34,924 bases of DNA, from IMG/VR virus record IMGVR_UViG_2896589216_000002. One strand, given 5' to 3'. Numbering within the stretch: position 1 is the stretch's first letter; each line of letters opens with the position of its first letter. The notes under the pieces were generated by a model, which saw nothing but the letters and a program-made list of their open reading frames with translations, was not told the origin of the DNA and made no database searches. This stretch comes from a virus (lineage: Duplodnaviria; Heunggongvirae; Uroviricota; Caudoviricetes). The translations under genes were made by a program, and so were the position numbers. Of the stretch, positions 24,203 through 32,177 are shown one piece after another.

Positions 24203-24277
<75 letters not shown>

Positions 24278-24280
24278 ATA

Positions 24281-24357
<77 letters not shown>

Positions 24358-24359
24358 CT

Positions 24360-24436
24360 GGCCCACCACCGAGGACTCGAACCTCGCACCGTCAACTTAG
24401 AAGGTTGATGCTCTATCCGGATGAGCTAGTGGTGGT
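24360..24436 (-). tRNA. tRNA-Arg (anticodon UCU), phage argN/argO-like
   Basis: Anticodon loop CTTCTAA, T-loop TTCGAGT, CCA; unusual C1:G72 acceptor pair. Confidence 0.8.
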
Positions 24437-24437
24437 T

Positions 24438-24514
24438 GGTGGCCCTTGCTGGACTTGAACCAGCGACCTGGCGATTATGAGTCGCTCGCTCTGACCAACT
24501 GAGCTAAAGGGCCG
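24438..24514 (-). tRNA. tRNA with CAU anticodon, ileX/ileZ-like (probable tRNA-Ile2; Met not excluded)
   Basis: GGCCCTT acceptor, anticodon loop CTCATAA, T-arm GCTGGTTCAAGTCCAGC resembling E. coli ileX. Confidence 0.7.
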
Positions 24515-27983: not shown

Positions 27984-28331
27984 TTACAACATAGTCAGGG
28001 ACGTAAGCAGTCTTTTAGGCTGCCGCCAGTCGATACCTTCAAGGAGCATCGCCAGCTGTGCCGGTGTGAGGAACACTTTGCCATCCCGGGCTGACGGCCA
28101 GGCGAAGCGGCCGCGCTCCAGCCGTTTGGTCAGCAGACACAGTCCATCGCCGGTAGACCAGAGGAGCTTTACCTGACTGCCATTACGCCCACGGAAGATA
28201 AAAACGTGACCTGACATCGGATCGTCTTTCAGCGTCGTCTGCACCTTTGCCGCCAGGCCGTTGAAGCCATTTCTCATATCGGTGATACCGGCAACCAGCC
28301 AAATTTTGGTCCCGGAAGGTAACGGGATCAT
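27984..28331 (-). CDS. tnpB: IS66 TnpB (copy 3)
   Basis: Identical. Confidence 0.85.
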   Translation of the reverse strand: MIPLPSGTKIWLVAGITDMRNGFNGLAAKVQTTLKDDPMSGHVFIFRGRNGSQVKLLWSTGDGLCLLTKRLERGRFAWPSARDGKVFLTPAQLAMLLEGIDWRQPKRLLTSLTML

Positions 28332-28729
28332 CGCTTCAGTTCCTGTATCAGCAGAGTCAGGAGCTTTTCGCTGACATTGCCATTAAAGCGGAGCGTCCCG
28401 TGCCGGAACGTTACCTCACAGCTGATACTGAGGGTTTCCGGATCCTCTGCGAGCGATTCTGGCTGTTCGGCAGCTGCATCGAGAGTCACAGGAAGTAGCT
28501 GGGGGCTCTCTGAAGAAGGTAATAGCAGCTTTCCCTCGCGCCATTGTTGTCGCCATTTGAACAACAGATTGGCGTTAATGCCATTTTCAAGAGCAAGTTT
28601 TGAGATGGATATCCCGGGTTCACAGGAGGCAGCAACGAGCTGCTGTTTAAATTCGGGAGGATAATTAGGGCAGCCTTTTCGCCTGCCGGGATTCACATTT
28701 TTCTGCATATCTGACACTTTGGTTCCCAC
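28328..28729 (-). CDS. tnpA: IS66 TnpA (copy 3)
   Basis: Identical. Confidence 0.85.
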   Translation of the reverse strand: MGTKVSDMQKNVNPGRRKGCPNYPPEFKQQLVAASCEPGISISKLALENGINANLLFKWRQQWREGKLLLPSSESPQLLPVTLDAAAEQPESLAEDPETLSISCEVTFRHGTLRFNGNVSEKLLTLLIQELKR

Positions 28730-28826
28730 TACTTATTTGGTGGACACCACTTTGTCTAATTCGTCAGATTCTGACCAGACGGTTCAGGCTGTACGCTTAC
28801 GTTTTTATAATCCGGCCATGACATTT

Positions 28827-29186
28827 TTACAACATTGTCAGTGCGTTAAGGCGGGATGTTTTTGGCTGACGCCAGTCCAGCTTATCGAGGAGCATTGCCA
28901 GTTGCGAGCGGGTAATGGATACCTTGCCGTCACGCACAGCAGGCCAGATAAACTGGCCTTCCTCCAGGCGTCTGGTGAACAGGCACAGACCATCAGCATC
29001 AGCCCACAGGATTTTAATCATGTCACCCCGTCGGCCACGGAAGATGAACAGGTGACCGGAGAAGGGATTATCATTCAGCACATGCTGTACCTGTTCACCC
29101 AGCCCGTTGAAAGACTTACGCATATCGGTTATCCCAGCAACGAGCCAGATGCGGGTGCCTGACGGGAGTGAGATCATCGTCCCCAC
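28827..29186 (-). CDS. tnpB: IS66-family TnpB (second element), 119 aa
   Basis: Clear paralogue of the 115-aa TnpB (...WLVAGITDMR...NGL...FIFRGRRG...). Confidence 0.8.
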   Translation of the reverse strand: MGTMISLPSGTRIWLVAGITDMRKSFNGLGEQVQHVLNDNPFSGHLFIFRGRRGDMIKILWADADGLCLFTRRLEEGQFIWPAVRDGKVSITRSQLAMLLDKLDWRQPKTSRLNALTML

Positions 29187-29593
29187 CCGGTCAGTTCACG
29201 GATCAACACTGTGAGCAGCTCTGGTGAAGGATTTTCCAGCGTCATGTTACCGTGACGGAACTCCACCTTGCAGGAGCTGGCACTAACTGTAGTCTGAGTA
29301 GATAAAGACGGAGTAAGAGCAGCCACCGGTTCTTTCGGCTCATCCGGCGTTATCTCCACAGGTAATAATTCAACGCCAGTGTCAGAAGAGGTTGTTACCG
29401 GAAGACGCCGCGATATGCGCCCTTCGTTCTGCCAGAGCCTGAGCCATTTGAACAGCAGGTTATCATTGATATCGTGTTCCCGGGCAATACGGGCAACAGA
29501 GGCTCCTGGTTGTGAAGCCAGTTTAACCATTTGAAGTTTAAACTCATTTGAAAATGATCTGCGGGGTTCTGCAGATAATGCTTTCTGTTCCAT
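29174..29593 (-). CDS. tnpA: IS66-family TnpA (second element), 139 aa
   Basis: HTH protein paralogous to tnpA. Confidence 0.75.
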   Translation of the reverse strand: MEQKALSAEPRRSFSNEFKLQMVKLASQPGASVARIAREHDINDNLLFKWLRLWQNEGRISRRLPVTTSSDTGVELLPVEITPDEPKEPVAALTPSLSTQTTVSASSCKVEFRHGNMTLENPSPELLTVLIRELTGWGR

Positions 29594-29679
29594 AACAGGT
29601 GTCCACTAGTTGAAAAGGTGGGCACCTACGTTACCAATACAGGCTTAATGGCTACATACGGCGGTCAGTTTACGCTTAC

Positions 29680-30017
29680 CAAAATACGCTGTTGCTTTTT
29701 TTAATATATATCGCTCAAGGCGAGCTTCATTTAACGCCTTACGCAGTTGCAGAATTTCAGATTCCAGTTCAGCCACCGTGCGGGAACCAGGAGTACCGAG
29801 CCCTTTTCTGGCGGCGGTAACCCATTGTCCTAAAGTGCCTTCAGGAAGGGATAATCGGGAAGCGCCTTCACTGATCGAAAGTTGATTTTCAAGAACCGTT
29901 CTGACAGCTTCGGCTTTGAACTCTTTAGAGTAACGTTGGTTTTTTCTGCTCATTATTAGCTCCTTCTGATGCCATTCTATTTCAGGAAGGAGTGTCCGTT
30001 AAACTCAGGCTACCTCA
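29680..30017 (-). mobile_element. IS600 fragment (IRL + most of orfA), truncated by the IS66-family remnant
   Basis: OrfA MSRKNQRYSKEFKAEAVRTVLENQLSISEGASRL...; end tgaggtagcctgagtttaacggacactcc (complement, 29989-30017); A7G slippery run. Confidence 0.85.
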
Positions 30018-30076
30018 GCCTGAGGGCAGGTGTAAAACAATAATCAAGCATGGGGTTCATATCCATAGCTCCATTT

Positions 30077-30622
30077 TTATTTTAAGGAAAGCAACTGCTC
30101 TACGGTCATGTTTTTAATTGCGCCCCGGTTTACAAGAGTCCAGCCCTGTTTTTCCAGATAAAACCGGAAAGTCTCCAGGGTACAGACCAGTGCGCCATCA
30201 GGAACGGTTTCGGTGAATTCGACATTGCCGAATTTGTCGAAGTGAACAACCAGAGTGCGACCATCACCCGGAATCATCTTGTCAGCAGGTGGGGTGTTAT
30301 TCTGGCGCAGTTCGGCCTCCATGCGGTCGAACTCAGCAATGTAGGCTTCCTTGAATGTGGCGGCTTTTTTGCCCGTGAAGCCCATCACCAGGAAAACGAA
30401 GCCGTTTTTGGTGATTTGGTAGGCGTTATAAGAATTGCCGCGGTGTTCGAATTTAACCCGCGAAAAGTTGCTGGTTAAAAATAGTTCAGAACATTCGAGG
30501 GATTCTATTTTTTGAACAACATGGTGATGCTGCTTGCCAAAAAACTCAGCAATCGAAATAGAAGTAGTGACGGCGCGACCATTTTCGATGGTTACGTCAG
30601 GGTGAGAAAGGGTAGTAGCCAT
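30077..30622 (-). CDS. Rha-family phage regulatory protein, ~182 aa from ATG at 30622
   Basis: N-terminal Rha motif (VTTSISIAEFFGKQHHHVVQKIESL); RBS gagga 8 nt upstream; longer 274-aa ORF in track is probably an over-extension. Confidence 0.65.
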   Translation of the reverse strand: MATTLSHPDVTIENGRAVTTSISIAEFFGKQHHHVVQKIESLECSELFLTSNFSRVKFEHRGNSYNAYQITKNGFVFLVMGFTGKKAATFKEAYIAEFDRMEAELRQNNTPPADKMIPGDGRTLVVHFDKFGNVEFTETVPDGALVCTLETFRFYLEKQGWTLVNRGAIKNMTVEQLLSLK

Positions 30623-30788
30623 AATGACATCCTCAAGTGATAAGTTAATTAACTCACCAGCAGAGGTGCTAATCTCATGGGTGGTGAGACGCACAGGGTT
30701 AGCACTACCGGTCACTCGAGAACCCGGCCAGCCTTGCGGCTGCCCCGCACGCCTCACCATAATTTGAATGTGGCTGTGCATTACGCAT

Positions 30789-30814
30789 AAAAAAAACCGC
30801 TTCAGCGCGGTTAT
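30789..30814 (-). terminator. strong rho-independent terminator
   Basis: Minus-strand hairpin aaccgcgctgaagcggtt followed by T8. Confidence 0.7.
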
Positions 30815-30866
30815 GCGCTCGAGTAACTTTCGGGGTGCTAATCCCGGCGCCCGTTTTATGAGGTGC
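30789..30866 (-). ncRNA. candidate ~80-nt small RNA or leader transcript bounded by the promoter and terminator above
   Basis: No start codon inside; predicted RNA gcaccucauaaaacgggcgccgggauuagcaccccgaaaguuacucgagcgcauaaccgcgcugaagcgguuuuuuuu. Confidence 0.4.
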
Positions 30867-30872
30867 AGGTGC

Positions 30873-30901
30873 ATTATAATTCCACCCGTTCTGGTTTTCA
30901 A
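30873..30901 (-). promoter_or_regulatory. near-consensus sigma70 promoter (TTGAAA - 17 nt - TATAAT) reading toward lower coordinates
   Basis: Minus-strand ttgaaaaccagaacgggtggaattataat. Confidence 0.55.
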
Positions 30902-30939
30902 TAGCTACATTCAACATTTTCTCTTTCCTTTCATCACCG

Positions 30940-31085
30940 AAGTGAATTTTGTGATGCGGTGCCTAGTGCCTCCAGGTGACGTTAACCAGTTAACAATTAC
31001 AGTCGGCTTTCCCACCCAAACCAATAAGGACTAACATGACTTTTAACTGTGCCGCGTGCGCTTAGCCGCATTCACCGCATCACAA
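30940..31085. repeat. 22-bp perfect inverted repeat (aagtgaattttgtgatgcggtg) flanking a 102-bp spacer with central gttaaccagttaac palindrome
   Basis: Arms at 30940-30961 and 31064-31085. Confidence 0.8.
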
Positions 31086-31086
31086 A

Positions 31087-31150
31087 ATTCACTTTAAAAA
31101 GGGCGGACATCAGCCAGCAATTAAACCGATGCCGCCAACTGGTACTTCAC
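31087..31150 (-). ncRNA. DicF-like small RNA candidate
   Basis: Downstream of ydfA in a dicA-led operon; hairpin GGCGGCATC...GATGTCCGCC + T5; resembles the DicF core as I recall it (GUUUGGCGGUAUCAG...CUGCCGCCCUUUUU). Confidence 0.45.
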
Positions 31151-31338
31151 ACAGCAATGTCGTTATTTACAACCGGAAGCGCACTCCCACCATTTAAATT
31201 TCACAGACAAGACCGACTCTTTATGAATACCGGAAATGCGCCTTCGTGTTGTGCCCGGTTTTATTTCACCACCTCCGGGCTTTGGTGGCCTCGGCTATAC
31301 CTCTACAGCGAGAATATTGAATTAATCCAATAAATGGA

Positions 31339-31491
31339 TTAGCTGGTATTTTTGGCAAGCCAGCGACGTGCGCCAGCTTCGGTTTTAAACGTTTTGCTTT
31401 TGGTATACGTCATGGCGGTGAATGTGCCGTCCTGATTGGGAAACACGCCACACACTAGGGATTCGTTGTTGCCAAGATCGATAGTATCCAT
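31339..31491 (-). CDS. ydfA: YdfA-like protein (DUF1391), 51 aa from ATG at 31491
   Basis: MDTIDLGNNESLVCGVFPNQDGTFTAMTYTKSKTFK... closely matches Qin YdfA; RBS gagg upstream. Confidence 0.75.
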   Translation of the reverse strand: MDTIDLGNNESLVCGVFPNQDGTFTAMTYTKSKTFKTEAGARRWLAKNTS

Positions 31492-31693
31492 GCTGACCTC
31501 ATTTCCCCTTAACGCCGGGGTAGCGGAACTGTTTGCTGAGAACACCGTGCGGTGTCTTGATGAATGAAATTTAGAATAACCTAAGGTGTTGGGTTAAGAT
31601 TTTATGTAGAAAAACCTAAGTTTTTTTGATGTAAAAAACACAAGTGTTTGAAAGTTTGTGCTTTTTATTACAGGGTGTGGAGAAAAAAGGGGA

Positions 31694-32101
31694 TTATTTG
31701 TTTGCGCTTCTTTTGCGAGCTTTGAGTAGTTCTTCAAAAAGTTTGTTGAAATTTTCAACTCGAGCACGCATCTCTGACAACAGGGCCTTTTGCTCTGACT
31801 CAGGCAGTGCGTCGAACAGTTGAAGTAACTCTTTTTGATCTTCTGTCAGAATGGCTGGCTGATTATCCGGGATCGGTTCGCCTGGTTGTTTATCTTCATC
31901 CCCAAAAAGAAGCCAAGTCGGTGAGCACTGAAGCGCTTGGCTCAGTGCGAATAATCTTTTCCCCGCCGGCTGTGTTTCATCTCTTTCCCATTGAGAAATT
32001 GTTACGTGAGCCACTTTGACCAGCTTACCTAATGCGGCCTGAGACAGTTTTAATTTTTTACGCCTATGTAAGAGGCGAGCACCGAAGGTTTCGTTTTTCA
32101 T
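31694..32101 (-). CDS. dicA: DicA-like XRE-family HTH repressor, 135 aa
   Basis: Motifs LQCSPTWLLFGDEDKQP, LFDALPESEQ, EMRARVENFNKLFEELLKAR match DicA; divergent from a Cro-like gene. Confidence 0.8.
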   Translation of the reverse strand: MKNETFGARLLHRRKKLKLSQAALGKLVKVAHVTISQWERDETQPAGKRLFALSQALQCSPTWLLFGDEDKQPGEPIPDNQPAILTEDQKELLQLFDALPESEQKALLSEMRARVENFNKLFEELLKARKRSANK

Positions 32102-32177
32102 ATTAGGGAATTCTAATTTTTCTTGACTTAGGTTTCTCTACGAGCTAGTTTCCTTAGGAAAATCTAAGGAGCTCGAT
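32102..32177. promoter_or_regulatory. dicA-dicC divergent control region with repeated CTTAGG/CCTAAG motifs (candidate operators)
   Basis: ttaggga, gacttaggttt, ccttaggaaaatctaagga; same hexamer recurs downstream of dicA (31580-31630). Confidence 0.4.

What the first reader, a model, noticed from the sequence alone, without database searches (positions are those of the whole stretch)
31087..31150. DicF-like small RNA candidate in the dicA-ydfA operon
Downstream of the YdfA-like gene, on the same strand as dicA, is a hairpin (GGCGGCATC / GATGTCCGCC) with a T5 tail. Its sequence resembles the core of E. coli DicF as I remember it (GUUUGGCGGUAUCAG...CUGCCGCCCUUUUU). Position matches the Qin dicA-ydfABC-dicF-dicB operon, but the 5' seed region differs (GUGAAGUACCAGUUGGCGG versus UUUCUGGUGACGUUUGGCGG) and no dicB homologue follows. 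If real, it is a diverged DicF with possibly different targets.
Basis: partly seen in the sequence, partly recalled or inferred. Interest (0 to 1): 0.65.

Follow-up and report, generated by a model that had tools for sequence, protein, structure and literature searches.

The report
KilS-type prophage small RNA, divergent allele
The hairpin is real and is the terminator end of a rare, divergent copy of the prophage small RNA KilS, which is related to DicF in its hairpin and to the host RNA RprA in its pairing arm; it is predicted not to block cell division as DicF does.

Summary
The hairpin with a T5 tail exists on the minus strand: stem 31136-31102, U-tail 31100-31096. It lies downstream of DicA-like and YdfA genes, and no dicB follows. 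It is homologous to DicF by position. Its 3' flank is near-identical to the dicF-dicB spacer, and the Rfam DicF model aligns end to end but below threshold (28.6 bits against a gathering score of 48).

The closest characterised relative is not DicF. It is KilS, a northern-verified 98-nt sRNA of the K-12 Rac prophage (b4833). The window shares KilS's promoter region and first ~43 nt (one change), then differs by a U-to-A change, a 4-nt insertion in the arm and a replaced loop. The predicted RNA is 31190-31096(-), about 95 nt.

The locus is a modular cassette: 131 copies gave 35 alleles that mix arm types and hairpin types. The KilS arm carries the RprA seed (AUUGCUGUGUGUAGUC, RprA nt 60-75), which is validated for csgD and ydaM. 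The window keeps 14 of those 16 positions.

The window allele pairs no better than shuffled controls with ftsZ, xylR or pykA. It still fits the validated csgD site (-25.1 kcal/mol; accessibility-aware z -1.45). It is rare, about 6 of 5,426 complete E. coli genomes, plus Shigella flexneri. Expression and targets are untested.

The parts
31096..31190 (-). Predicted KilS-type small RNA (~95 nt). The 5' end is inferred from the K-12 KilS annotation; the 3' end is at the U5 tail.
   Evidence: Alignment with K-12 kilS (b4833, 98 nt): the first 43 nt are identical but for one change. Rfam DicF model 28.6 bits over 31151-31101.
31137..31161 (-). Single-stranded pairing arm AACGACAUUGCUGUGUGAAGUACCAGUU. 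This is the RprA-like seed (14 of 16 positions of RprA nt 60-75, exact 11-mer AUUGCUGUGUG) followed by a 4-nt insertion.
   Evidence: Pairs with the validated RprA site Ib of csgD at -25.1 kcal/mol, against -5.5 for the DicF arm.
31102..31136 (-). Terminator hairpin, type II architecture: 13 bp with one bulged U and the 8-nt loop UAAUUGCU.
   Evidence: Folds. It shares the stem GGCGGCAUC.G/CUGAUGUCCGCC with K-12 KilS and other alleles, but the loop differs.
31096..31100 (-). U5 tail of the intrinsic terminator (likely Hfq-binding 3' end).
   Evidence: Sequence; terminator scan; invariant in all 131 copies.
31191..31225 (-). Region matching the KilS promoter. K-12 has the extended -10 TGtTAAATT; the window has TGtGAAATT (first T of the hexamer changed to G).
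   Evidence: Alignment A4. Bar et al. 2021 report that KilS can be transcribed from its own promoter. Hexamer assignment is my inference.
30940..31094 (-). Conserved structured domain closed by a ~22-bp helix immediately after the terminator, with a hypervariable apex. It is probably the RNase III processing site known for dicF transcripts.
   Evidence: Fold -84.6 kcal/mol for 226 nt, z = -4.86, 0 of 200 shuffles as good. Near-identical in Qin, Rac, O157 and 130 other loci. Sub-threshold STnc100 match at 30.7 bits.
31339..31491 (-). ydfA/ydaF-type DUF1391 gene, first gene of the left operon.
   Evidence: 90% identical to K-12 YdfA; PF07151 E = 8e-30.
31569..31625 (.). Two operator-like repeats, TAGAA(A/T)AACCTAAG, overlapping the PdicB-like promoter between dicA and ydfA. 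Three more copies lie at 32103-32167 between dicA and cro.
   Evidence: Repeat search; alignment with the K-12 dicA-ydfA spacer.
31694..32101 (-). DicA-like CI-type repressor.
   Evidence: 62% identical to K-12 DicA; HTH_3 and Phage_CI_repr domains.
30077..30901 (-). Downstream module, not part of the sRNA: promoter (30901-30873), IsrK (30866-30790), C4-like/orf45 region (30764-30677) and Rha antirepressor ORF (30622-30077).
   Evidence: Rfam isrK 63.8 bits and C4 78.6 bits; promoter matches 11 of 12 consensus positions; PF09669. The system is described for Gifsy-1 in PMC4825925.

Best explanation
The hairpin is the intrinsic terminator of a KilS-type prophage small RNA (predicted 31190-31096, minus strand, ~95 nt). 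It lies in the repressor-controlled early-left operon of a Rac-like lambdoid prophage.

SHOWN:
- It is the positional and sequence homologue of K-12 KilS and, through the hairpin and flanks, of DicF.
- The locus is a modular cassette whose 5' arms and hairpin loops occur in different combinations.
- The KilS-lineage arm carries the RprA seed.
- The window allele lacks DicF's anti-ftsZ loop and DicF's 5' arm.

INFERRED:
- The RNA is made either from the KilS promoter (weakened here by a -10 T-to-G change) or by read-through from the DicA-repressed left promoter.
- It ends at the U5 terminator, or is cut by RNase III at the 22-bp helix just downstream.
- It may be trimmed by RNase E at AAC|AUUGC to a ~63-nt form with an arm plus a terminator, as happens for RprA60-105 and DicF.
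- It binds Hfq through the terminator and U-tail and pairs with host mRNAs through the GU-rich arm.
- The best candidate targets are those of RprA and KilS: the csgD leader site Ib, and the yncL leader. Pairing is weaker than for K-12 KilS because of one mismatch.
- It is not expected to repress ftsZ, xylR or pykA.
For: Homology:
- The element aligns with the annotated dicF of phage Tritos, with about 150 nt of near-identical 3' flank.
- The O157:H7 locus with the same gene order (dicA-like, DUF1391, sRNA, isrK, C4, Rha) carries a copy that Rfam accepts as DicF at 54.7 bits.
- K-12 Rac has the annotated ncRNA kilS (b4833) at the same place. Its sequence matches the window through the promoter and the first 43 nt.
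- KilS was verified by northern blot, detected in Hfq RIL-seq, and can be transcribed from its own promoter according to global TSS data (Bar et al. 2021, PMC8175672).

Family structure:
- 131 copies anchored on the conserved flank gave 35 alleles.
- All 37 distinct alleles (35 plus Salmonella and Citrobacter) fold as a ~16-nt free arm, a hairpin and a U-tail. One stem change is compensatory: GGCGG:CCGCC to GGUGG:CCACC.
- Within the window's lineage the flanks are 0.91-1.0 identical while the loop is 0.62 with indels.
- In the canonical DicF class the RNA body is 0.95-0.98 identical.

Seed:
- The exact 16-mer AUUGCUGUGUGUAGUC is shared by RprA nt 60-75 and KilS. O157 shares an 18-mer and the window an 11-mer, 14 of 16 positions.
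- That RprA region was validated by compensatory mutation for csgD site Ib and for ydaM, and the processed form RprA60-105 starts there (PMC3465796).

Pairing:
- On csgD site I: RprA -24.6, KilS -27.2, O157 -27.2, window -25.1, DicF arm -5.5 kcal/mol.
- Accessibility-aware ddG: -17.0, -17.0, -17.0, -12.0 and -4.6 respectively.
- On the yncL leader the KilS arm gives -18.9 and the window arm -19.0.
- On ftsZ, xylR and pykA the window allele has z = +0.7, +0.2 and +0.4, against -1.6, -3.1 and -3.7 for K-12 DicF.

Regulation: operator repeats and a PdicB-like promoter are conserved upstream.
Against: - There is no expression data for this allele.
- The KilS -10 hexamer has lost its first T in the window (TGtGAAATT). 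Locus L076 has the same hairpin with an intact -10.
- The prophage is degraded: IS elements cut the operon after Rha, and kilR, the gene KilS precedes in Rac, is absent.
- The allele is rare, about 6 of 5,426 complete E. coli genomes. This fits drift as well as it fits specialisation.
- The loop variation could be neutral, because terminator loops are weakly constrained.
- The csgD prediction for the window allele is only modest once accessibility is included (z = -1.45).
- The yncL site ranks only 469 (KilS arm) and 673 (window arm) of 16,320 background windows.
- The ydaM prediction is not better than shuffles.
- From my own knowledge, not tested here: curli genes are often inactivated in Shigella, so csgD may not be a live target in the host.
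Confidence: 0.6

Rival explanations
1. It is only an intrinsic terminator and processing signal of the early-left operon (a tL-type site overridden by antitermination), with no trans-acting role. The RNA fragment is a by-product, and its arm and loop drift freely.
For: - The invariant parts across alleles are the stem clamp, the U5 tail and the downstream RNase III-type helix. These are the parts a terminator or processing site needs.
- The loops in the window's lineage are the least conserved part.
- No phage-internal complementary partner was found.
- The window allele's target predictions are modest.
Against: - The closest relative, KilS, accumulates as a discrete RNA seen on northern blots and forms Hfq-dependent chimeras.
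- DicF from the same locus type is a proven regulator.
- The arm is not drifting freely. A 16-nt block identical to a validated RprA seed is kept exactly in 15 copies and with 1-2 changes in 19 more.
- Loops of 8-19 nt are long for a plain terminator.
Confidence: 0.25
2. It is a functional DicF: a division inhibitor that represses ftsZ.
For: - Same operon position and scaffold as DicF.
- Sub-threshold DicF covariance-model match.
- The O157:H7 copy at the same locus passes the DicF threshold.
Against: - The ftsZ-pairing region of DicF lies in the 3' region and loop (PMC5069750). Here ACUCCGUGACUGCUCUG is replaced by UUUAAUUGCUGGCUGAUG and largely locked into a 13-bp stem.
- Binding to the ftsZ leader is ddG -5.65, z = +0.73, against -14.4 for DicF.
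- The 5' arm used for xylR and pykA is also replaced.
- The Rfam score is 19 bits below the gathering score.
Confidence: 0.05
3. It is a decaying remnant: a KilS gene that lost function in a degraded, IS-riddled prophage (promoter mutation, seed mutation, arm insertion), persisting only by linkage.
For: - The -10 T-to-G change and two seed substitutions plus a 4-nt insertion relative to K-12 KilS.
- kilR is missing and IS elements flank the region.
- The allele is very rare in E. coli.
Against: - The same hairpin and arm occur unchanged in at least three different flank backgrounds (L003/L005, L076, L079) and in a near relative (L031). They also occur with an intact -10 in L076, so the allele pre-dates this particular degraded prophage.
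- The stem remains perfectly paired and is more stable than canonical DicF (-20.3 against about -16 kcal/mol).
- The inserted bases extend, rather than break, complementarity to the yncL leader (GUAC) and add pairs on csgD.
Confidence: 0.1

Closest known systems
KilS (kilS, b4833), 98-nt sRNA from the kilR 5' UTR of the E. coli K-12 Rac prophage (Bar et al. 2021, PMC8175672)
   Same: - Same place in a Rac-like prophage: after the DUF1391 gene of the repressor-proximal left operon.
- Same promoter region.
- First 43 nt identical but for one change.
- Same stem GGCGGCAUC.G/CUGAUGUCCGCC, U5 tail and downstream helix.
   Different: - The arm has a U-to-A change and a 4-nt insertion (GUGUGAAGUACCAGUU against GUGUGUAGUCCU).
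- The loop is UUUAAUUGCUGG in place of UUUUUUUCUUGAAGUUCGG.
- The -10 hexamer has T changed to G.
- It is followed by isrK-C4-rha instead of kilR.
- It is found in about 0.1% of complete E. coli genomes, against 25% for the K-12 KilS type.
DicF (RF00039), 53-nt sRNA of the Qin dicB operon
   Same: - Homologous terminator hairpin (UUGGCGG...CCGCCC-U5).
- Same position downstream of dicA-ydfA.
- Same conserved ~150-nt helix domain after the terminator.
- Same overall build: a free 5' arm, a hairpin and a U-tail.
   Different: - Below the Rfam gathering score (28.6 against 48).
- No anti-ftsZ loop.
- Different 5' arm.
- No dicB, ydfB or ydfC.
- Predicted not to pair with ftsZ, xylR or pykA.
RprA (RF00034), Rcs-controlled chromosomal sRNA, and its processed form RprA60-105
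   Same: - The pairing arm is a diverged copy of RprA nt 54-75. K-12 KilS shares AACGA(C)AUUGCUGUGUGUAGUC; the window keeps AACGACAUUGCUGUGUG.AGU.
- The block sits directly 5' of the terminator, as in RprA60-105.
- It is predicted to bind the same csgD site Ib.
   Different: - No significant match to the RprA covariance model. K-12 KilS scores 28.1 bits against a gathering score of 70, and the window gave no match up to E = 10.
- Different terminator, different 5' half (so no rpoS- or hdeD-pairing region), and a different genomic locus and regulation.
The O157:H7 'DicF' copy in the Rac-like prophage (NZ_CP066753.1, locus L002)
   Same: Identical gene order (dicA-like, DUF1391, sRNA, isrK, C4, Rha). 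Flanks about 91% identical overall and near-identical next to the RNA. Same KilS/RprA-type upstream part.
   Different: The O157 copy has the full RprA 18-mer and a DicF-type hairpin with the ACUCCGUG loop. It therefore passes the DicF model at 54.7 bits and keeps predicted pykA and ftsZ pairing.

Membership tests
DicF (RF00039) | Score at or above the Rfam gathering score (48 bits) for the covariance model | tested here: not met
   28.6 bits, E = 3e-4, model positions 1-52. No hit at the gathering threshold. For comparison: Tritos 72.5, Salmonella 60.6, O157 54.7, K-12 KilS 39.1.
DicF (RF00039) | Position in the DicA-controlled left operon after ydfA, with the conserved post-terminator helix | tested here: met
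DicF (RF00039) | GC-clamped terminator hairpin plus U-tail, preceded by a free 5' arm | tested here: met
DicF (RF00039) | 3' region and loop complementary to the ftsZ ribosome-binding site (ACUCCG anti-SD) | tested here: not met
   The loop is UAAUUGCU with no CUCC. ddG on the ftsZ leader is -5.65, z = +0.73, against -14.4 for DicF. The defining region is taken from PMC5069750.
DicF (RF00039) | 5' arm UUUCUGGUGAC that pairs with xylR and pykA | tested here: not met
   The arm is replaced. z = +0.18 (xylR) and +0.37 (pykA), against -3.1 and -3.7 for DicF.
DicF (RF00039) | Co-transcribed with dicB downstream | tested here: not met
   tblastn finds no DicB (best E = 0.15, 19 aa). isrK-C4-rha follows.
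KilS (b4833) | Sequence identity with the 5' part of K-12 KilS and its promoter and TSS region | tested here: met
   Alignment A4: from about 50 nt upstream of the TSS to KilS nt 43 there are only point changes, a -10 T-to-G and a C-to-U at nt 13.
KilS (b4833) | Type II hairpin GGCGGCAUC.G...CUGAUGUCCGCC plus U5 | tested here: met
   The stems are identical except A-U changed to G-U. The loop is different and shorter.
KilS (b4833) | Lies in the 5' UTR of kilR | tested here: not met
   No KilR homologue in the window. The downstream gene set is isrK-C4-rha.
KilS (b4833) | Independent promoter | tested here: inconclusive
   The region is conserved, but the inferred -10 reads GAAATT instead of TAAATT, with the upstream TG kept. 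The promoter scan does not call it.
KilS (b4833) | Pairs with yncL (RIL-seq partner) | tested here: inconclusive
   The window arm gives -19.0 and the KilS arm -18.9 kcal/mol on the yncL leader. These rank 673 and 469 of 16,320 background windows.
KilS (b4833) | Accumulates as a discrete Hfq-associated RNA | not testable with these tools
   Needs a northern blot, RNA-seq, or Hfq CLIP/RIL-seq in a strain with this allele.
RprA (RF00034) | Match to the RprA covariance model | tested here: not met
   No RprA match up to E = 10 in 30900-31400. K-12 KilS scores only 28.1 bits against a gathering score of 70.
RprA (RF00034) | Seed nt 60-75, AUUGCUGUGUGUAGUC (anti-csgD site Ib, ydaM) | tested here: inconclusive
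   14 of 16 positions, with an exact 11-mer that includes the GCUG validated by compensatory mutation. The csgD site duplex is -25.1, against -24.6 for RprA, but the accessibility-aware z is only -1.45.

The most novel reading that the evidence does not exclude
This locus of Qin/Rac-type prophages is a plug-in sRNA cassette. A fixed scaffold (GC-clamped terminator, U-tail, RNase III helix) receives swapped pairing modules.

One lineage (KilS, the O157 'DicF' copy and this window) carries a captured copy of the host RprA seed. That would let the prophage act on RprA targets such as csgD (curli and biofilm) independently of the Rcs stress signal. Other lineages carry the anti-ftsZ loop.

On this reading the window allele is a retargeted member. 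Its arm substitutions and 4-nt insertion shift specificity away from csgD and towards other mRNAs, possibly yncL.

I found no paper linking KilS to DicF or to RprA. Faubladier & Bouche 1994 could not be read and may already describe the Rac dicF-like sequence.
Probability: 0.3. Interest if true: 0.7.

Novelty: new variant of a known kind. Interest (0 to 1): 0.45.

Why it matters
DicF is the textbook prophage sRNA that stops cell division, and copies are usually counted by similarity to the K-12 sequence. This locus shows that such counting misses a large part of the family:
- A KilS-type allele sits unannotated in 25% of complete E. coli genomes.
- Rarer alleles, such as this one, fall below the Rfam threshold.
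- At least one copy that passes the Rfam DicF model, in O157:H7, is a chimera with an RprA-type arm.

If the arm works as it does in RprA, prophages could repress the biofilm regulator CsgD without the host's envelope-stress signal. Allele differences would then mean different host genes are hit in different strains. For this particular window the practical message is that the element should not be annotated as DicF or assumed to inhibit division.

Tried and rejected
1. Phage-internal target. I searched 14 loci for stretches complementary to each allele's own arm or loop. The longest matches (8-12 nt) were no longer than for shuffled queries. A first attempt with sliding duplexfold timed out.
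2. Coupling between the loop type and the second hypervariable spot (the apex of the downstream helix). The two assort independently: the window-type loop occurs with three different apex sequences.
3. Pair counting on a MAFFT alignment of alleles. The 3' arm is shifted by one column between the two architectures, so I used per-allele folds instead.
4. Whole-RNA cofold on yncL. It was not better than shuffles for either KilS or the window allele. Only the arm-level duplex is informative, and it is not diagnostic.
5. ydaM pairing. It was not better than shuffles for RprA60-105, KilS or the window allele in my simple model, even though it is experimentally validated for RprA. This shows the limits of these energy tests.
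6. A coding reading. No minus-strand ORF of 30 aa or more overlaps 31024-31266. The plus-strand ORF 31049-31333 has no Pfam match.
7. Literature. Faubladier & Bouche 1994, Melson & Kendall 2019 and Murashko & Lin-Chao 2017 are not held.
8. Genome-wide target prediction was not possible because no whole genome is available to the scripts.

Full report
**1. The observation**

On the minus strand, window 31136-31102 forms a 13-bp hairpin: GGCGGCAUCGGUU, loop UAAUUGCU, then GGCUGAUG-U-CCGCC. It is followed by C and U5 (31100-31096).
- It folds at -20.3 kcal/mol, z = -2.17.
- A simple terminator scan finds it, but such sites are common: 7 found against 3.6 expected in 2.5 kb. The hairpin alone is weak evidence.
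- Upstream on the same strand are a DicA-like repressor (62% identical to K-12 DicA) and a YdfA/DUF1391 gene (90% identical).
- On the other side are a P22-Cro-like gene and YdaT.
- tblastn finds no DicB, KilR, YdfB, YdfC, YdfD or YdaE anywhere in the window.

**2. Is it DicF?**

At Rfam's curated threshold the window has no DicF. It does have C4 (30764-30677) and IsrK (30866-30790) just downstream. With permissive filters the DicF model aligns over its full length at 31151-31101(-), at 28.6 bits against a gathering score of 48, E = 3e-4.

Position settles the homology.
- In phage Tritos, where dicF is annotated, the element aligns column for column with dicF.
- The ~150 nt after the U-tail are almost identical.
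- An O157:H7 prophage with the same gene order as the window (dicA-like, DUF1391, sRNA, isrK, C4, Rha) carries an intermediate copy that passes the DicF model at 54.7 bits.

The window element is therefore a true relative of DicF that the curated model does not accept.

**3. The locus is a family of alleles**

A scan of viral contigs for the conserved flank, together with the genome hits, gave 131 copies and 35 distinct alleles.

All 37 distinct alleles (35 plus Salmonella and Citrobacter) fold as a ~16-nt free arm, a hairpin and a U-tail. There are two stem architectures:
- Type I (canonical DicF, O157, Salmonella): 7 bp, a bulge, then 4-5 bp.
- Type II (window, K-12 Rac type and others): 11-13 nearly perfect bp with one bulged U.

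One stem change is compensatory, GGCGG:CCGCC to GGUGG:CCACC.

Arms and hairpins recombine. For example, L026 has the canonical DicF arm on a type II hairpin, and O157 has the other arm on a DicF hairpin.

Conservation differs between the lineages.
- Among 22 unique sequences sharing the window's upstream flank, the flanks are 0.91-1.0 identical. The loop is 0.62 with indels, and a second variable spot lies at the apex of the downstream helix.
- In the canonical class (72 unique sequences) the RNA body is 0.95-0.98 identical.

Frequencies in 5,426 complete E. coli genomes:

| Allele | Genomes |
|---|---|
| Canonical DicF | 3,947 |
| K-12-Rac type | 1,332 |
| Window type, 100% identity | 5 |
| Window type, 93% identity | 1 |

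The window type is also present in Shigella flexneri SFBU1023.

**4. The closest known relative is KilS**

The K-12-Rac type is annotated in MG1655 as the ncRNA kilS (b4833, 98 nt), between ydaF/sieB and kilR. Its 3' end is the U5 tail and its 3' half is the type II hairpin.

The window matches KilS from about 50 nt upstream of the TSS through KilS nt 43, with only two point changes. It then differs in three ways:
- a U-to-A change in the arm;
- a 4-nt insertion in the arm;
- a replaced, shorter loop.

One of the two point changes alters the first T of the inferred extended -10 (TGtTAAATT to TGtGAAATT).

Bar et al. 2021 verified KilS by northern blot, found it in Hfq RIL-seq with yncL as partner, and report that it can be transcribed from its own promoter. 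They do not mention DicF. By analogy the window RNA would span 31190-31096(-), about 95 nt.

**5. The arm is an RprA seed**

A weak RprA alignment on K-12 KilS led to a direct comparison.
- RprA nt 54-75 and KilS share AACGA(C)AUUGCUGUGUGUAGUC.
- The exact shared word is 16 nt for KilS, 18 nt for O157 and 11 nt for the window (14 of 16 positions).
- The chance expectation for a 16-mer shared by two ~100-nt RNAs is about 2e-6 (my calculation).
- The block is exact in 15 copies, has 1 mismatch in 10, has 2 mismatches in 9, and is absent from the canonical DicF lineage.

Mika et al. 2012 showed by compensatory mutations that this part of RprA pairs with csgD site Ib and with ydaM. They also noted a stable fragment, RprA60-105, that starts at this block.

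**6. Pairing tests (ViennaRNA, my scripts)**

| Test | K-12 DicF | RprA | K-12 KilS | O157 copy | Window |
|---|---|---|---|---|---|
| ftsZ leader, ddG (z) | -14.4 (-1.6) | | | -11.5 (-0.9) | -5.7 (+0.7) |
| xylR leader, ddG (z) | -15.4 (-3.1) | | | -6.9 (-0.1) | -7.5 (+0.2) |
| pykA leader, ddG (z) | -18.8 (-3.7) | | | -17.9 (-3.4) | -7.7 (+0.4) |
| csgD site I, arm duplex (kcal/mol) | -5.5 | -24.6 | -27.2 | -27.2 | -25.1 |
| csgD leader, ddG (z) | -4.6 (+1.5) | -17.0 (-2.6) | -17.0 (-2.2) | -17.0 (-3.3) | -12.0 (-1.45) |
| yncL leader, arm duplex (kcal/mol) | -11.7 | | -18.9 | -18.7 | -19.0 |

Notes on these tests:
- The window duplex on csgD has 12 contiguous pairs, one mismatch, then 4 more pairs.
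- The RprA entry for csgD ddG is the processed form RprA60-105.
- The yncL site ranks only in the top 3-4% of 16,320 background windows.
- ydaM is not recovered even for RprA, so these tests are permissive guides and not proof.

**7. Context and biogenesis**

- Two operator-like repeats overlap a PdicB-like promoter between dicA and ydfA. Three more lie between dicA and cro, an OL/OR-like layout.
- After the terminator comes a ~155-nt domain closed by a ~22-bp helix (z = -4.86). It is conserved in Qin, Rac and all other loci. It fits the published RNase III-dependent 3' processing of dicF transcripts (title cited; the paper itself was not read).
- AAC|AUUGC fits the RNase E preference (my knowledge) and matches the RprA60-105 5' end.
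- Downstream is the IsrK-orf45-AnrP-type switch described for Gifsy-1.
- IS elements truncate the operon after Rha.

**8. Verdict**

The element is real. It is homologous to DicF in its scaffold, belongs to the KilS lineage, and carries a diverged RprA-type seed. It should not be filed as DicF, because the model threshold, the anti-ftsZ loop, the DicF arm and dicB all fail.

It most likely acts, if expressed, as an Hfq-dependent sRNA pairing through its arm, and not as a division inhibitor. Expression, Hfq binding and targets are untested. The rival readings (terminator only, or a decaying copy) together keep about a third of the probability.

Noticed in passing
window 30677-30901 (-): There is a strong promoter-like site (TTGAAA-17-TATAAT, 30901-30873), then IsrK (63.8 bits) and a C4-type antisense RNA (78.6 bits), directly upstream of a Rha/antirepressor ORF (30622-30077). 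This is the Gifsy-1 IsrK-orf45-AnrP arrangement. In O157:H7, RefSeq annotates one long 282-aa 'Rha' ORF running through both RNA genes. In the window that frame is broken: the tblastn match falls into two pieces.
   Followed up: partly
window 30940-31094 (-): A ~155-nt RNA domain is closed by a ~22-bp helix (GUGAAUUUUGUGAUGCGGUGAA / CACCGCAUCACAAAAUUCAC), with z = -4.86. It is conserved after every dicF/kilS-type terminator examined. Its apex is a second hypervariable spot. It gives a sub-threshold match to Rfam STnc100 (30.7 bits against a gathering score of 47).
   Followed up: partly
L002 2880-2930 (E. coli O157:H7 ECP19-598, NZ_CP066753.1): This O157:H7 copy passes the Rfam DicF model (54.7 bits) but is a chimera. 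It has the KilS/RprA-type upstream part, with an exact 18-mer of the RprA seed, joined to a DicF-type hairpin with the ACUCCGUG loop. It is predicted to pair with pykA and with csgD site Ib. RefSeq does not annotate it.
   Followed up: partly
K-12 Rac kilS (L143 4406-4503, minus) and 1,332 E. coli genomes: The KilS-type allele is present at 99% identity or more in about 25% of complete E. coli genomes, with no feature annotated under the match in the rows shown. Rfam 15 has no KilS family; the DicF model scores K-12 KilS at 39.1 bits, below threshold.
   Followed up: yes
L026 (IMG/VR 2654588054_000006) and L036: These alleles have the canonical DicF 5' arm (UUUCUGGUGAC) joined to non-DicF hairpins: a type II stem with the loop UUUGCCCAUGAA in L026, and a short 6-bp hairpin in L036. 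They show that arms and hairpins are exchanged independently.
   Followed up: no
window 31569-31625 and 32103-32167: A 14-16-nt operator-like repeat, TAGAA(A/T)AACCTAAG, occurs twice between dicA and ydfA and three times (inverted) between dicA and the cro-like gene. This is a lambdoid OL/OR layout for the DicA-like repressor.
   Followed up: partly
L079 (IMG/VR 2636415858_000002) vs window 29680-32888: This prophage contig is 99.1-99.7% identical to the window. However, the segment 29680-31298 (Rha, C4, IsrK, sRNA) is inverted relative to dicA-ydfA, and about 926 bp is inserted at the junction near 31295. The same junction (CCACCAAAGCCCGGAGGTGG) is where FDAARGOS_943 carries about 467 extra bp. 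It appears to be a recombination hot spot.
   Followed up: no
window 24203-24513 (-): A cluster of four tRNA genes sits head to tail: Met(CAT), Arg(TCT), Thr(TGT) and Gly(TCC). This is typical of lambdoid prophage late regions.
   Followed up: partly
window 28328-29953 and 33021-34216: IS-type transposase ORFs flank the immunity region: IS66-family TnpA/TnpB-like and IS3-family OrfA/OrfB-like. The left operon ends after Rha, and kilR-ydaE-recE of the O157 and K-12 Rac layout are missing. This fits a degraded prophage in a Shigella-like genome.
   Followed up: partly
window 31204 (-10 of the KilS promoter region): The window-type alleles L003, L005, L079 and the window itself (as well as L127, which carries a different hairpin) read TGTGAAATT where K-12 and most others read TGTTAAATT. 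L076 has the window-type hairpin with the intact T, and L046 has C at this position.
   Followed up: no
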